Positions 12,711 through 29,458 of a stretch of DNA of 64,000 nucleotides are shown one piece after another. The notes under the pieces were generated by a model. The model saw only the letters and a list, made by a program, of their open reading frames with translations. It did not search any database and had not been told where the DNA came from. A program made the position numbers and the translations under genes. The stretch lies in NCBI RefSeq assembly GCF_009914755.1, contig NC_060936.1, one strand, 5' to 3'. This DNA is from the human T2T-CHM13v2.0 reference genome, Homo sapiens. Numbering within the stretch: the first letter of the stretch is position 1; the number at the start of each line of letters is the position of its first letter.

Positions 12711-12868
12711 CACTTCTCCTCTAGTGGCAGATGTGATCCAATCCCTGCAGGCAGAAATTCTTGTGAAGGTGGTGCAGTGGGATGGCAGTGACTGCTGCCT
12801 CAGCTCACAATGTCAACAAGCTTGTACTTCCCATGCCGGGCACATTGCGGTGGTCTTCCAGAATCTCC
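12711..12868 (-). pseudogene. OVCH1: Decayed OVCH1 terminal exon: protease domain 3, catalytic-Ser exon
   Basis: Pyrimidine tract + ttgcag| then GDSGRPPQCARHGKYKLVDIVS*GSSHCHPTAP[fs]FTRISACRDWITSATRGEV; TGA at 12802-12800 replaces the Trp of VSWG. Confidence 0.93.
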
Positions 12869-13274
12869 CTGCAACCAGCAAAAAGAGAAGTTCTCCCAAA
12901 TGCCTGATTCCTGGCCGACATTAACCCCAACTGCAGAGGATGGTCAGGCAGGGCACAGGTTGTTCTCTTTATCTCGCTGATTTCTGCTCACAACCTAATA
13001 GAAAACTATGGCCACTCAGGTAGTGGGCTGATGCGACAGATCTCTGAACTGGATTAAAATCTATACCTTCAAGGAGAGACTGAAAGATAAGTTAGTGTAA
13101 ATTCACTTAATGCTGACTGTAGACTCTGCCATGAAGAAACTTTCAAGCATCTATATAAATGGCCAGGTGATGGTTTTCAGTGACATGAAAACTCCTTTAT
13201 GTTTTCAGTGTTACTAGAAGTAGGTGCATTAAGCCACCTAATTCAGCTATGCAGCTGAATCATAAGAAATGATC

Positions 13275-13582
13275 AGCCGGGCGCGGTGGCTCACGCCTGT
13301 AATTCCAGCACTTTGGGAGGCTGAGGCAGGCGAACCACGAGGTCAGAAGTTCGAGACCAGTCTGGCCAACATAGGGAAACCCCGTTGCTACTAAAAATGC
13401 AAAAAATTAGCTGGGTGTGGTGGTGTGTGCCTGTAATTCCAGCTACTCGGGACGCTGAGGCAGGAGAATCACGTGAACCCAGGAGGCGGAGGTTGCAGTG
13501 AGCTGAGATGGCACCATTGTACTCCAGCCCAGGAGATAGTGCAACACTCCACCTCAAAAAAAAAAAAAAAAAAAAAAAAAAA
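13275..13582 (+). mobile_element. AluS
   Basis: Dimeric Alu, polyA, TSD AAGAAATGATCA. Confidence 0.95.
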
Positions 13583-13870
13583 CAAAAGAAATGATCATGT
13601 TTGTAGGTCAAAAACCATTGAATATCAGCAATTACACATAATTCATCCAAGTATTGACTAATTCCTTTTGAGAACTGAGTTCACTTCAACTATCAAATTA
13701 CTAATTACGGTTCATTTGTTTTTAAGGTAACTTAACAATGTATTTATTCTTCTTGCCTTTCTTTTTAAAACTACCATGCATCTATACCTCTTTATGAATC
13801 AGCAAATGCCAGTTTGTGAGACATACTAAAAAGAAAACTCCCAGACTCATCAATGCAATCCTTGAATTAC

Positions 13871-13989
13871 CATGCAGGAAGATGATCCTGCAGCTCTTCT
13901 GAATATATTGGTGTTTTTAAATATCCATACCCTGGTAGCTTTGCCAAGAGGTACCTTTGCCTGTTATACCATGTTAGAAAATTCATCCT
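13871..13989 (-). pseudogene. OVCH1: Decayed OVCH1 exon: protease domain 3, S1-pocket exon
   Basis: ag|xDEFSNMV*QAKVPL[del/fs]QSYQGMDI[fs]KNTNIFRRAAGSSSCM|gt; phase 1 to 0, joins GDSG; TAA at 13966-13964. Confidence 0.9.
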
Positions 13990-15048
13990 CTAGCACAAAA
14001 AGAATAAAAATACATATAAACCTAGGCAAATGCTTTTAAAGGCTAAAACACGGATTGCAGACTCTTAGGGGTAAATCCCACCATTTTTCTCTCTGACACT
14101 GTAATGATGTTGTTAGGTGATTTGTAAAGACCTAATATTATTCTACTTTAGCTTATACAACAGAAACTCCAAAAACTGTTTTGTATGGATTCTTTTTATC
14201 TTCACTACGGTTCTAGGATGAGAGAAAAATAATATCACTTCATAGAAGGAAAAAGTTTAGAACCAAATCAGTTTTTGATGATGCAATCAGTACAATTCAT
14301 TTTTAAATGTTAAGCCTATACTTGATTCCCTTGGTTTCATTGTGATCTCATTCTTTTGACTTGACTTTGCCGAATAAACATAATGTTTAGAGGTTGACAA
14401 TGGAAACGACATTCTGATTTACTCTAGTCTATTGGATATTTGTAACTTGTTAACTCAGTTGTACAATACAGTAGGAGTGAAACCAAACTCATGGGTTGAC
14501 CTTCACATGGGCTAGTTATTTTCACATAATCTTTTCCACCCATTTACCATTCATACCAATCCATCATTTCAGAAAAATGCCTCACATCATTAGAAATTGG
14601 CTGATACCTTCAAGTATGAGTTTTCACTGTTATAAAAACAATTGTGTATGTGTGTCTGAGTTTGTGTATGTTTAGAGTACAATTGGAGAGTAATTACATA
14701 GAAATGAGACTTACAAATATTAGGTAATAAAATCACTAGATATTCTTCAATACATGTTTTTATAAGTATCAATAAACTGGTATTCATGAATATAATGACC
14801 TAAAACCCAGGAAGTCACCTTTATTTTATTTATTTATTTATTTTTATTATTATACTTTAAGTTTTAGGGTACATGTGCACAATGTGCAGGTTAGTTACAT
14901 ACGTATACATGTGCCATGCTGCTGCGCTGCACCCACTAACTTGTCATCTAGCATTAGGTATATCTCCCAATGCTATCCCTCCCCTCCAACCCCACAACAG
15001 TCCCCAGAGTGTGATGTTCCCCTTCCTGTGTCCATGTGTTCTCATTGT

Positions 15049-27256: not shown

Positions 27257-27356
27257 TTTGTCATAAGGGAGTGAGGAAATAGACATTTCTTTTAATGAGG
27301 TCATAGTCATTTTTCATAATTACTAAAAATATATTATTTTACATTTCTCTTTGTTC

Positions 27357-27650
27357 TTTTTAGAATTAGAGATATGGTATTGCACTATCACCAATCTGGA
27401 GTACACAGGTATAATCATAGCTCACTGCAGCCTCAAACTCTGGGCTCACGTGATTCTGTCTTCAGCCTCCTGATTTGCTGGGACTACAAGCCCACACCAC
27501 TATGCCCAGCTAATTTTTTTTAGTTTTTTGTAGAGATGGAGGTCTTACTATGTTGCCCAGGCTGATCTCAAACTCCCAGCCCAAAGTGATCCTCATGTCT
27601 TCATTTCCCAAAGTGCTAGGATTACAGGTGTGAACCACCATGCCCAGTCT
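27357..27650 (-). mobile_element. AluJ
   Basis: Diverged reverse Alu dimer. Confidence 0.88.
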
Positions 27651-27785
27651 ACATTTCTAATCTATATTAAAAATTTTATTGTCTTGAATTCTTGGAAAAT
27701 AGGGATTTCTCTTAATAACTTTAATCCCTGAGAAAAATTTTAATGTATATATTTTCTTTCCTCCATAATACTAAACAAAGTATGA

Positions 27786-28085
27786 TTTTTTTTTTTTTGA
27801 GATGGAATCTCATTCTGTCACCCAGGCTGGAGTGCAGTGGCACAATTTGGGATCACTGCAAGCTCCGCCTCCCAGGTTCATGCCATTCTCCTGCCTCAGC
27901 CTCCCGAGTAGCTGGGACTACAGGTGCCCGCCACCATGCCCGGCTAATTTTTTTTTTTTTAATTTTTAGTAGAGACAGGGTTTCACCGTGTTAGCCAGGA
28001 TGGTCTCGATCTCCTGACCTCATGATCCACCTGCCTTGGCCTCTCGAAGTGCTGGGATTACAGGCATGAGCCACTGCGCCTGGCC
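27786..28085 (-). mobile_element. AluY/Sc-type element
   Basis: Reverse Alu, TSD-like AA(G/A)TATGATTTTT. Confidence 0.95.
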
Positions 28086-29191
28086 AACGAAATATGATTT
28101 TTAAGATGCATGATGCCTCAAGATAATGATTCTGTGCATTATTACAATTATAATAATAGATGTTATACACTTATATAATGGCCTCTGAAAGATATTCTGA
28201 AAGTTATATTTACTCCCTGTAAAATGGTTTTCAAAGAAGTGTCTAGGAACTATGCATTAAGTCTGGCATTGCCTTAAAAATTTAGAATCTGATGTAACTC
28301 ATCAAATCAAAACTCAAAATTATGATTCTAAAATTTGATTGCAAACTCCCCAAACAGTTTTGAACACATGAAAGTCTGAAAATTGCCTTATAAGGATGAC
28401 TTCTTGAGATTTACCTATTCAAGAGTAAAGTTGGGGGATGATAAAGAAAATGAGGTTTTGATTCACTGAAGGGTCCTGCTCACCAAGTTATTTGAGCAGA
28501 TAGAAGGAACTGTTACTTTGAAGACACTGAAAACATTATATTTGATCATTTGGCTATGGGACATCATGTGATGTTCTCAACCATCTCACTACTTCTGGGA
28601 GACCAATATTAGAAATATCAGAATTTTAGTACTGAGCAACCTTTAAACTGAGGAAGGAATTTTCAGATAATGTCTCAATATCACATGGAAACAAGATTCA
28701 GATGAAATCAAAGAAAAAATTTTCTTTCCAAGAGCATTCTTTAAAATTTTTCAGAACTTTCTATATTTATTTTGGGAGCAGGTATGATGATCAGTCAGTA
28801 GAGGAGAGCAAGGAGGAAGGAGACCCACCGTTTAGCAACTCCAGTGCTCTAGGTGATATGTTCAGAAGCTGATGCACACATGTTAAGACATCATTATCTC
28901 CATTTTATAGATGAGGAAAGAGAGGGCAGCATTGTTAGTCACTTATTTTAAAAAGAGCTGGAAGGAAAAAGCAGCTTTTAAAATGAAAAACTATTAGTGG
29001 TATGTGTATTGTTGAAGGACAGAAAGTTTCATTCACCTAATATGTTCATTCATTTGCAAGGTGAAGACTATATCAGCGGGAGCATAAACTTTAATGTTTC
29101 TTGTGACATAGGGAGAGCAGATGGGTACACCCATTGTGAGCCCTTGAACAAGCAGTCTCAGAGACCCTGCACCACAGGCACAGGCACAGAC

Positions 29192-29458
29192 CTAAAGTTA
29201 GAACGCACTGCTGCCAGGACCCACTGTTTTGTGGCCAGGGAGCCTCTATAATAATGTTGTCTGGGTGCTGCAGACTAACTAGCCAGGGCCATGACATTGC
29301 AGATGCAGCACAGCTACCAATCAACCTAGGCTCTCCAAGCATGGCTGGCAGCACATTTGTATTTCTGTCCGAATTTTCCATTCGAAATTGGTCAACAGCT
29401 GGAATGCTACGTTTGTCTTGGGTTGGCCAACTTCCTGTATTGTTTTCTATTGTTATCC
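29192..29458 (-). pseudogene. OVCH1: Decayed OVCH1 exon: propeptide, activation site and catalytic-His exon of protease domain 3
   Basis: ag|GITIENNTGSWPTQDKRSIPAVDQFRMENSDRNTNVLPAMLGEPR-LIGSCAASAMSWPWLVSLQH[-1]QHYYRGSLATKQWVLAAVRSNF|gt; the TAAHC motif reads AAVRS (CGT at 29205-29203). Confidence 0.92.

What the first reader, a model, noticed from the sequence alone, without database searches (positions are those of the whole stretch)
12711..29458. The dead third protease was chymotrypsin-like; His is lost, Asp and Ser codons survive
Seen: activation site PR|LIGS; SWPWLVSLQ; HYYRGSL (for HYCGGSL); WVLAAVRS (for WVLTAAHC, His as CGT at 29205-29203); HDDL[-1]LLHL (Asp kept); AGWG; AAGSSSCM|GDSGRP (Ser kept, Gly to Arg); VS*G. 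Known: Ser at position 189 with CMGDSGG is the chymotrypsin signature, whereas Asp189 gives trypsin specificity. Intron phases 2 (after His), 1 (after Asp) and 0 (before GDS) fit S1-family gene structure. Inference: this is the orthologue of the egg-envelope chymotrypsin-like ovochymase, and the number of lesions suggests an old loss.
Basis: partly seen in the sequence, partly recalled or inferred. Interest (0 to 1): 0.78.

Follow-up and report, generated by a model that had tools for sequence, protein, structure and literature searches.

The report
Dead third protease of human OVCH1
Downstream of the human ovochymase-1 stop codon lie the decayed exons of a third, chymotrypsin-like protease domain that whales, cattle, cats, turtles and frogs still have intact, so the human gene has lost the domain it appears to be named after.

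Summary
Five relic exons on the minus strand (29458-29192, 27256-27097, 21236-21141, 13989-13871, 12868-12711) line up in order with the third S1 protease domain of intact OVCH1 proteins. The best match is Balaenoptera ricei, 1465 aa, at 67% identity. His57 reads CGT (Arg), while the Asp102 and Ser195 codons survive and residue 189 is Ser.

The domain carries 5 frameshifting deletions, 3 in-frame stops, one 15-nt deletion, one AG-to-AA acceptor and four lost disulfide cysteines. Upstream lie three more dead exons (second half of CUB4, and CUB5). The whole C-terminal third of an ancestral protease-CUB2-protease-CUB3-protease gene is therefore dead.

In a 67-row tree the relic sits inside the mammalian domain-3 clade (100/100). 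Domain 3 plus chymotrypsinogens/CTRL form a clade (100/99) apart from domains 1 and 2, which have Asp189. None of 12 domain-3 sequences has Asp189. All 10 primate models, a lemur included, stop before the relic.

This is ordinary domain-level pseudogenisation. I found it in no paper. Three relic exons are still used by annotated transcripts.

The parts
29192..29458 (-). Relic domain-3 exon 1. It holds the linker, the activation site PR|LIGS, SWPWLVSLQ, HYYRGSL and WVLAAVRS. The acceptor AG (29460-59) and donor GT (29191-90) are intact. Lesions: a 1-bp deletion (broken codon at 29264-63), Cys42 to Tyr (29250-48), His57 to Arg (CGT, 29205-03) and Cys58 to Ser (29202-00).
   Evidence: 68% and 47% identity to whale residues 1191-1255 and 1258-1289, joint E 9e-26
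27097..27256 (-). Relic domain-3 exon 2. It holds TVTDN...HDDL and LLHLEKRIEF, and the Asp102 codon GAT (27135-33) is kept. AA stands at 27258-57 where the acceptor AG is expected. There is a 1-bp deletion at the codon after DDL (27129-28). The donor GT is at 27096-95, phase 1.
   Evidence: E 2e-14 to the whale protein
21141..21236 (-). Relic domain-3 exon 3 (G-EF..TTNLVPEEDDKIN*L..TCMTAGWGTTELH). AG and GT are intact. Its bounds equal those of an annotated exon of other OVCH1 transcripts (21141-21236). Lesions: a 1-bp deletion (21228-27), a TGA stop (21187-85) and a 2-bp deletion (21181).
   Evidence: hub annotation
13871..13989 (-). Relic domain-3 exon 4 (DEFSNMV*QAKVPL...NIFRRAAGSSSCM). Ser189 is TCT at 13882-80. 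Lesions: a TAA stop (13966-64), 5 codons missing relative to whale, lion and buffalo, and Cys168 and Cys182 lost. AG and GT are intact, and the following intron is phase 0.
12711..12868 (-). Relic domain-3 exon 5 (GDSGRPPQCARHGKYKLVDIVS*GSSHCHPTAP / FTRISACRDWITSATRGEV). The Ser195 codon TCT (12862-60) is kept. Lesions: Gly196 to Arg, Trp215 to TGA (12802-00), and 4 nt missing (broken codon at 12769-68). The ancestral stop is not in frame. The acceptor at 12868 equals the end of the annotated terminal exon 10652-12868 of other transcripts.
   Evidence: hub annotation
31278..31449 (-). Relic exon for the second half of CUB5. It carries a 2-bp deletion (31366) and Cys to His in AHLHGS. Its bounds equal those of an annotated exon of other transcripts.
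37699..37922 (-). Relic exon for the first half of CUB5 (75% identical to whale over 61 residues). Lesions: a TAA stop (37854-52), a 1-bp deletion (37740-39) and Cys to Tyr in LNYTW.
42735..42844 (-). Relic exon for the second half of CUB4, the ancestral successor of coding exon 51503-51642. Lesions: a TGA stop (42815-13), 5 codons missing and a 1-bp deletion (42770-69).
39134..39160 (-). Tentative relic of a small linker exon (SMRGKIKYN against buffalo SMRGNIKVN). The match is weak.
   Evidence: E 0.7-2.2 with three queries; right strand and right interval only
48876..63546 (-). The still-annotated coding end of OVCH1: the last exon of protease 2 (GDSGGP at 63546), CUB3, the first half of CUB4, and then the 11-nt coding tip of a terminal exon that gives GEC-stop.
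   Evidence: hub annotation

Best explanation
The stretch holds the pseudo-exons of the third serine-protease domain of an ancestral three-protease OVCH1 gene. That gene had the layout signal, S1, 2 CUB, S1, 3 CUB, S1.

In the human lineage the long form of the gene stopped being maintained. The mRNA now ends in a terminal exon after the first half of CUB4. The eight downstream exons (CUB4b, CUB5a, CUB5b and five protease exons) then drifted neutrally, collecting deletions, stops and active-site changes.

The lost domain was the chymotrypsin-type member of the three. It has Ser189, its closest relatives are chymotrypsinogens, and it is activated by cleavage after Arg15 in KPR|VVGG. The two retained domains are trypsin-type (Asp189).

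The relic cannot make a protease. Its only present activity is that three of its exons, with intact splice sites, are still spliced into non-canonical OVCH1 transcripts as untranslated sequence.

Shown: the exon map, the lesions, orthology to domain 3, and chymotrypsin kinship. Inferred: neutral drift since an early primate or earlier loss, the substrate preference, and the identity with Xenopus ovochymase proper.
For: - Colinearity. tblastn of whale P0018 maps residues 1000-1464 in order onto the minus strand at 42845, 37923, 31462, 29459, 27258, 21214, 13990 and 12871. Buffalo, hippo and aardvark proteins give the same order.
- Controls. No HSPs at E<=1e-3 with the reversed query or with 5 shuffled queries, and none on the plus strand.
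- Architecture. The whale, hippo, aardvark and buffalo models have 3 Trypsin stretches and 3-5 CUB stretches. The bonobo and macaque models have 2 Trypsin stretches.
- Profile match. The read-through with X at the breaks scores 178 bits, E 9e-57, against a local S1 profile.
- Tree. Among 67 rows, domains 1, 2 and 3 are each one clade at 100/100. The relic is in the 10-row mammalian domain-3 clade at 100/100. Its end branch is 0.45, against 0-0.14 for the other mammals. Domain 3 plus chymotrypsins has 100/99 support. The placement is the same with the corrected join.
- Lesions verified base by base.
- Splice sites. 7 of 8 relic exons keep the acceptor AG, and 7 of 7 internal donors are GT.
- Faster change in human. 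Against the whale=buffalo consensus, human differs at 60 of 193 domain-3 columns and lion at 19 of 193 (Fisher p 3e-7).
- Primates. All 10 primate models stop aligning to the whale protein at about residue 1000-1055, and their tails map to unrelated window sequence.
- Retained domains. Both read D-x-C-Q-GDSGG, which is Asp189.
Against: - Pfam's own Trypsin model found nothing in the six separate fragments at E<=1. They are 37-122 aa pieces, and the joined read-through could not be given to that tool.
- The relic CUB exons are no more diverged from the Laurasiatherian consensus (46 of 185) than the still-coding CUB3-CUB4a (46 of 182). Amino-acid divergence alone therefore does not separate dead from live here.
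- No non-human DNA was available. Whether each lesion is shared by other primates is untested, and so is whether the AA at 27258-57 was once AG.
- The gene models of other species are automatic predictions.
- No Xenopus sequence, OVCH2 or trypsin was in the tree.
Confidence: 0.95

Rival explanations
1. The loss is recent, specific to humans or apes, rather than old.
For: I could read no other primate genome. Gene predictors would skip a domain with even one lesion, so the absence of the domain from 10 primate models fits any loss that predates each species.
Against: There are 8 frameshifting deletions, 2 in-frame 15-nt deletions, 5 stops and a lost acceptor across about 1.4 kb of former coding sequence. 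The relic's branch is 0.41-0.45 changes per site, 3-4 times that of the lion. The models of a lemur, 6 New World monkey models, 2 Old World monkeys and the bonobo all lack the domain. No Euarchontoglires protein appears among the domain-3 hits.
Confidence: 0.05
2. The pieces are a retrocopy or a duplicated fragment of a pancreatic chymotrypsinogen gene that landed by chance in the OVCH1 3' region. On this view they are not the original third domain.
For: Automatic pipelines name the same domain 'chymotrypsinogen A-like' or 'B-like' in other mammals.
Against: The pieces are split by introns of 2-7 kb with AG/GT bounds. They follow relic CUB4b and CUB5 exons in the order of intact OVCH1. They are 67% identical to whale domain 3, whereas domain 3 is 40-46% identical to chymotrypsinogens. 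In human CTRB genes one exon-level match (query 105-164 of the Octodon chymotrypsinogen B-like protein) spans both Asp102 and the GWG motif, while the relic splits them between two exons.
Confidence: 0.01
3. The whole human OVCH1 gene, not only its last third, is drifting towards a pseudogene, and the relic is just the oldest part of that decay.
For: The retained CUB3-CUB4a differs from the whale=buffalo consensus at 46 of 182 columns, against 21 of 182 for lion (p 0.001). That is as much as the dead CUB exons. Human CUB3 reads LHG where whale, lion and buffalo read LCG, and CUB4 is cut in half. A passage of PMC3868571 lists OVCH1 among genes with homozygous loss-of-function variants.
Against: Primate domains 1 and 2 have branch lengths like those of the lion and whale (D2 about 0.09 against 0.12; D1 about 0.22 against 0.20). 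Both keep their reading frames and Asp189/GDSGG. Human lies outside the lion-whale group, so some excess difference is expected in any case.
Confidence: 0.25

Closest known systems
Domain 3 of intact vertebrate ovochymase-1 (for example Balaenoptera ricei P0018 residues 1236-1465; Panthera leo, Bubalus, turtles, frogs)
   Same: Same place in the gene, same order after CUB5, 67% identity, same clade. Same activation motif position, Asp102, Ser195 and Ser189.
   Different: The human copy has His57 to Arg, Gly196 to Arg, four lost cysteines, 5 frameshifts, 3 stops, a 15-nt deletion and a broken acceptor. It is not translated.
Xenopus laevis ovochymase polyprotease (Lindsay, Yang and Hedrick 1999). 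Recalled from memory; the paper could not be opened.
   Same: As recalled: three proteases and five CUB domains in one precursor, with the C-terminal, chymotrypsin-like domain being ovochymase and the first two being trypsin-like. Passages of PMC13079451 call ovochymase a chymotrypsin-like protease of the Xenopus perivitelline space. My anuran rows (Bombina, Ascaphus, Leptodactylus) have the same three-domain layout.
   Different: No Xenopus sequence was among my rows. The human gene keeps only the counterparts of the two trypsin-like domains.
Pancreatic chymotrypsinogen A/B and CTRL (nearest solved structure: bovine chymotrypsinogen A, 1acb_E)
   Same: S1 fold, SSCMGDSGGP around Ser195, Ser189, Gly216. 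Sister group of domain 3 (100/99; E 1.3e-60).
   Different: Residue 226 is Thr in mammalian and Ala in amphibian domain 3, against Gly in chymotrypsin. Domain 3 is fused behind CUB domains. In human CTRB, Asp102 and the GWG motif lie within a single exon-level match.
Ascidian HrOvochymase (passages of PMC9265791)
   Same: Signal peptide, protease, 2 CUB, protease, 3 CUB, protease. Its third protease domain lacks a typical catalytic triad.
   Different: There the degenerate third domain is still translated as part of the protein. In human it is outside the reading frame altogether.

Membership tests
Peptidase S1 (chymotrypsin fold, Pfam PF00089) | Significant match to an S1 profile over the whole domain | tested here: met
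   A local profile was built from 10 S1 sequences. The read-through with X at the breaks scores 178 bits, E 9e-57. Pfam's own model on six separate fragments gave no match at E<=1. The joined read-through could not be given to that tool.
Peptidase S1 (chymotrypsin fold, Pfam PF00089) | Catalytic triad His57, Asp102, Ser195 | tested here: not met
   His57 is Arg (CGT, 29205-03). Asp102 (GAT, 27135-33) and Ser195 (TCT, 12862-60) are present.
Peptidase S1 (chymotrypsin fold, Pfam PF00089) | An open reading frame that can be translated | tested here: not met
   5 frameshifting deletions and 3 in-frame stops lie within the five exons. This is a relic of a member, not a member.
OVCH1 domain 3 (the ovochymase domain), orthologue | Lies 3' of CUB5 in the OVCH1 locus, same strand, exons in order | tested here: met
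OVCH1 domain 3 (the ovochymase domain), orthologue | Groups with domain 3 of other species rather than with domains 1, 2 or other S1 proteases | tested here: met
   100/100 within the mammalian domain-3 clade. Domain 3 (19 rows) is one clade at 100/100, and the result repeats. OVCH2 and trypsins are not in the tree.
OVCH1 domain 3 (the ovochymase domain), orthologue | Intact orthologues lack Asp189 | tested here: met
   0 of 12 domain-3 sequences have Asp at 189. The residues are Ser 7, Thr 3, Ala 1, Pro 1 (numbering).
Chymotrypsin-type specificity (large hydrophobic P1) | Ser189, Gly216 and Gly226 lining an open S1 pocket | tested here: inconclusive
   Ser189 and Gly216 are present in the relic and in mammalian domain 3. 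Residue 226 is Thr in mammals and Ala in amphibians, not Gly. In the relic that codon falls at the 4-nt gap.
Chymotrypsin-type specificity (large hydrophobic P1) | Measured cleavage after Phe/Tyr/Leu | not testable with these tools
   This needs enzyme assays of an intact mammalian domain 3. The Xenopus activity is known only from passages of PMC13079451 and from recall.

The most novel reading that the evidence does not exclude
Human 'ovochymase-1' lost its ovochymase domain before the primates radiated, perhaps in the Euarchontoglires stem. What remains is a two-trypsin-domain protein with a crippled CUB tail that is itself sliding towards pseudogene status. The dead exons survive mainly because their splice sites are still used, so the relic now shapes the 3' ends and the decay-prone isoforms of the transcript rather than any protein.
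Probability: 0.3. Interest if true: 0.45.

Novelty: new member of a known kind. Interest (0 to 1): 0.35.

Why it matters
- It explains why the annotated OVCH1 gene span runs about 37 kb past the stop codon of its main transcript. It also explains the non-canonical exons at 31278-31449, 21141-21236 and 10652-12868, which are ancestral coding exons.
- The human protein lacks the chymotrypsin-like activity that gave the family its name. Work on frog or ascidian ovochymase therefore cannot be carried over to human OVCH1 without care.
- The 'chymotrypsinogen A/B-like' gene models of several mammals are probably the 3' end of OVCH1.
- It gives a clean, datable case of domain-level gene decay in a reproductive protease.

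Tried and rejected
- Pfam scan of the six raw frames: no Trypsin hit, because the pieces are too short. I replaced it with a local profile and with ortholog-guided tblastn.
- First join of exons 2 and 3. I had used the GT at 27086-85 as the donor, which put three extra residues (LYG) and a wrong frame for three more into the read-through. The alignment exposed this. The donor is at 27096-95. The careful tree used the older join, and the quick tree with the corrected join agrees.
- A conserved short isoform. Several non-primate models end in KKLIGN, which looked like a shared alternative end. It is simply read-through of the donor after 51503 (G|GTAACTGA in human). I dropped it as evidence.
- Lindsay 1999 and Puente 2004 were not held.
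- Literature. Five searches found no paper describing the dead third domain of human OVCH1. Subscription papers are not in the library.
- Dating by amino-acid divergence. This is informative for domain 3 but not for the CUB relics, which differ no more than the retained CUB3-CUB4a.
- OVCH2 and trypsin were not added to the tree. Assembling them exon by exon from the genome was judged not worth the calls.
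Full report
**What is in the sequence**

The window is the 3' part of human OVCH1 on the minus strand. The annotated coding exons inside it translate to four things in order:
- the last exon of protease domain 2 (GDSGGPLVC..., starting exactly at 63546);
- a linker;
- CUB3 and the first half of CUB4;
- three residues and a stop (GEC*) from the tip of a terminal exon at 48886-48876.

A CUB domain cut in half suggested that the gene once went on.

I confirmed their coordinates base by base.

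**Finding intact relatives**

A search with the CUB3 exon (P0001) for longer proteins returned 48 vertebrate OVCH1 models.

- The ten primate models are 626-1128 aa.
- Several other mammals reach 1300-1465 aa.
- In a Pfam scan of 10 of these models, bonobo and macaque show 2 Trypsin stretches. Balaenoptera ricei (P0018, 1465 aa), hippopotamus, aardvark and water buffalo show 3 Trypsin stretches plus 3-5 CUB stretches.

**Colinearity**

tblastn of P0018 against the window gave an ordered series on the minus strand:

| Whale residues | Window coordinates | Part |
|---|---|---|
| 702-1001 | annotated exons | still coding |
| 1000-1032 | 42845-42762 | CUB4b |
| 1058-1139 | 37923-37679 | CUB5a |
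| 1129-1191 | 31462-31276 | CUB5b |
| 1191-1289 | 29459-29164 | domain 3, exon 1 |
| 1280-1322 | 27258-27130 | domain 3, exon 2 |
| 1342-1368 | 21214-21136 | domain 3, exon 3 |
| 1367-1411 | 13990-13871 | domain 3, exon 4 |
| 1411-1464 | 12871-12714 | domain 3, exon 5 |

Hippo, aardvark and buffalo proteins give the same order.

With whale residues 1001-1465 as query there were 11 minus-strand HSPs at E<=1e-3 and none on the plus strand. The reversed query and five shuffles gave none at E<=1e-3.

**Exon map and lesions**

| Exon | Coordinates | Splice sites | Lesions and kept residues |
|---|---|---|---|
| Domain 3, exon 1 | 29458-29192 | AG/GT intact | 1-bp deletion at 29264-63; Cys42 to Tyr; His57 to Arg (CGT, 29205-03); Cys58 to Ser |
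| Domain 3, exon 2 | 27256-27097 | AA where the acceptor AG should be; donor GT at 27096-95 | Asp102 GAT kept; 1-bp deletion after DDL |
| Domain 3, exon 3 | 21236-21141 | AG/GT intact | 1-bp deletion; TGA stop; 2-bp deletion; AGWG kept |
| Domain 3, exon 4 | 13989-13871 | AG/GT intact | TAA stop; five codons missing; Cys168 and Cys182 lost; Ser189 kept |
| Domain 3, exon 5 | 12868-12711 | acceptor AG intact | Ser195 TCT kept; Gly196 to Arg; Trp215 to TGA; four bases missing |

The intron phases are 1, 2, 1, 1 and 0.

The three upstream relics add three more frameshifts, two stops and a second 15-nt deletion:
- CUB4b at 42844-42735;
- CUB5a at 37922-37699;
- CUB5b at 31449-31278.

Every indel is a deletion. 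Seven of eight acceptors and seven of seven internal donors are intact.

Three relic exon bounds coincide exactly with exons of other annotated OVCH1 transcripts in the hub's table: 31278-31449, 21141-21236 and the acceptor at 12868. The relics are therefore still spliced, and the gene's annotated span to 10652 reflects the ancestral full-length gene.

**A correction to my own work**

My first join took the GT at 27086-85 as the exon 2 donor. The alignment showed three extra residues there in human only.

The careful tree used the older join, with six wrong residues out of 227. A quick tree with the corrected join gives the same placement.

**Orthology and family**

Searching with whale domain 3 among long proteins found three-domain OVCH1 in cetartiodactyls, the lion, turtles, birds, squamates, caecilians and many frogs.

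Searching among short proteins found two groups:
- Domain-3-only models from sperm whale, humpback dolphin, muntjac, porpoise, raccoon dog, donkey, dog and meerkat. These are 65-99% identical and are auto-named 'chymotrypsinogen A/B-like'.
- True chymotrypsinogens and CTRL-1, at 40-46% identity.

I built a 67-row maximum-likelihood tree rooted on three domains of a fish polyserase-2-like protein. The rows were:
- domains 1-3 of 15 three-domain OVCH1 models and domains 1-2 of the three primate models;
- 5 domain-3-only models;
- 13 chymotrypsin or CTRL proteins.

The results:
- Domains 1, 2 and 3 are each one clade at 100/100.
- The human relic lies in the 10-row mammalian domain-3 clade at 100/100.
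- Domain 3 plus chymotrypsins form a clade at 100/99.
- The relic's end branch is 0.45 changes per site. Other mammalian domain-3 rows have 0-0.14.

The nearest solved structure to domain 3 (query P0156) is bovine chymotrypsinogen A, E 1.3e-60. The next non-chymotrypsin hit is factor XI at 5e-47.

**Specificity residues**

I used the chymotrypsinogen numbering on the alignment.
- Residue 189 is Ser in 7 of 12 domain-3 sequences, Thr in 3, Ala in 1 and Pro in 1. It is Asp in none.
- The relic keeps Ser189 and Ser190.
- Gly216 is general.
- Residue 226 is Thr in mammals and Ala in amphibians, against Gly in chymotrypsins. The pocket may therefore be narrower than in chymotrypsin A.
- The two retained domains read D-x-C-Q-GDSGG, which is Asp189 and trypsin-type.

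**Gene structure**

- The phase-0 intron just before GDSGG is shared by domains 1, 2 and 3. It fits the human CTRB exon hits, where the last exon starts at query residue 211.
- Domain 2 carries Asp102 and the GWG motif in one exon, and in human CTRB a single exon-level match spans both. Domain 3 splits them between two exons.
- That a 2-1-0 phase pattern is typical of trypsin and kallikrein genes is my recollection, not a result here.

**Age of the loss**

- All 10 primate models stop aligning to the whale protein at residues about 950-1055: bonobo, red colobus, macaque, Aotus, marmoset, two Saimiri, Cebus, Sapajus and the lemur Propithecus.
- Their tails map to unrelated window sequence at 47583-47461, 41957-41916 and 35799-35728.
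- No primate, rodent or lagomorph protein appears among the domain-3 hits.
- Human differs from the whale=buffalo consensus at 60 of 193 domain-3 columns, lion at 19 of 193 (p 3e-7).
- Ten deletions and five stops in about 1.4 kb fit tens of millions of years of neutral drift. This uses indel-to-substitution ratios that I recall only roughly, so I give no date.
- Against a simple reading: the dead CUB exons (46 of 185) differ no more than the still-coding CUB3-CUB4a (46 of 182).

**Literature**

I found no description of the dead third domain in five searches. Subscription journals are not covered by the library. I read passages only, in these papers:
- PMC9265791: ascidian ovochymase has the layout protease, 2 CUB, protease, 3 CUB, and a protease without a typical triad.
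- PMC6350857.
- PMC1435904: reference list only for this purpose.
- PMC3495648 and PMC9243076.
- PMC10850435.
- PMC11018894.
- PMC3868571: OVCH1 is listed among genes with homozygous loss-of-function variants.

Lindsay et al. 1999 was not held. That ovochymase proper is the C-terminal domain of the frog polyprotein is recalled.

**Verdict**

This is an ordinary kind of event, the decay of the exons of one domain after a gene is truncated. It is documented here in detail for a gene whose human name now describes a part it no longer has.

Noticed in passing
P0156-P0166; no window coordinates: Short gene models named 'chymotrypsinogen A-like' or 'B-like' are 65-99% identical to whale OVCH1 domain 3. 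They come from sperm whale, humpback dolphin, muntjac, porpoise, raccoon dog, donkey, dog and meerkat. The five I put in the tree fall in the domain-3 clade. They look like the 3' end of OVCH1 predicted as a separate gene.
   Followed up: partly
window 53420-59709 (-), annotated CUB3: Human CUB3 reads GGLHGRR where whale, lion and buffalo read ELCGRR, so a conserved cysteine is gone from a still-annotated coding exon. The retained CUB3-CUB4a differs from the whale=buffalo consensus at 46 of 182 columns, against 21 of 182 for lion. That is as much as the dead CUB exons.
   Followed up: partly
window 51498-51505 (-): The donor after exon 51503-51642 reads G|GTAACTGA, so read-through gives ...KKLIGN-stop. 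Five non-primate OVCH1 models (fishing cat, donkey, wild yak, elephant seal, dog) end in exactly KKLIGN. They probably reflect the same intron read-through rather than a true isoform.
   Followed up: yes
window 47461-47583, 41916-41957, 35728-35840 (-): The C-terminal tails of primate OVCH1 models (bonobo, colobus, squirrel monkey, sifaka) map to these stretches. They have no counterpart in the whale, lion or buffalo proteins, so they are lineage-specific junk exons after the truncation.
   Followed up: partly
P0079 (Ahaetulla) and P0068 (Anser), domain 3: The snake domain 3 reads QDLG where GDSG belongs (Ser195 to Leu) and lacks R|VVGG. The goose domain 3 also lacks the activation motif. The third domain may be inactive or decaying in some sauropsids too, as reported for the ascidian protein (PMC9265791 passages).
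   Followed up: no
window 14814-20130 (-): A long L1-type retrotransposon sits in the intron between relic exons 3 and 4. It has open frames of 594, 298, 295 and 197 aa on the minus strand, in the stretch the hub marks as repeat.
   Followed up: no
window 39134-39160 (-): Possible relic of a small linker exon between CUB4 and CUB5 (SMRGKIKYN against buffalo SMRGNIKVN). The support is weak: E 0.7-2.2 with three queries.
   Followed up: partly
L011-L012 (window-extended 69987-80115) and G000:C16:81269509-81271612: Protease domain 2 carries Asp102 and the GWG motif in one exon, and in the human CTRB genes a single exon-level match spans both. Domain 3 splits them between two exons. Only the phase-0 intron before GDSGG is common to all.
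   Followed up: partly
window 28751-31449 (-), annotated exon of another transcript: One annotated exon starts at the CUB5b acceptor, runs through its donor and the intron, crosses relic protease exon 1 and ends at 28751. It looks like an alternative 3' end made by failure to splice (hub table).
   Followed up: no
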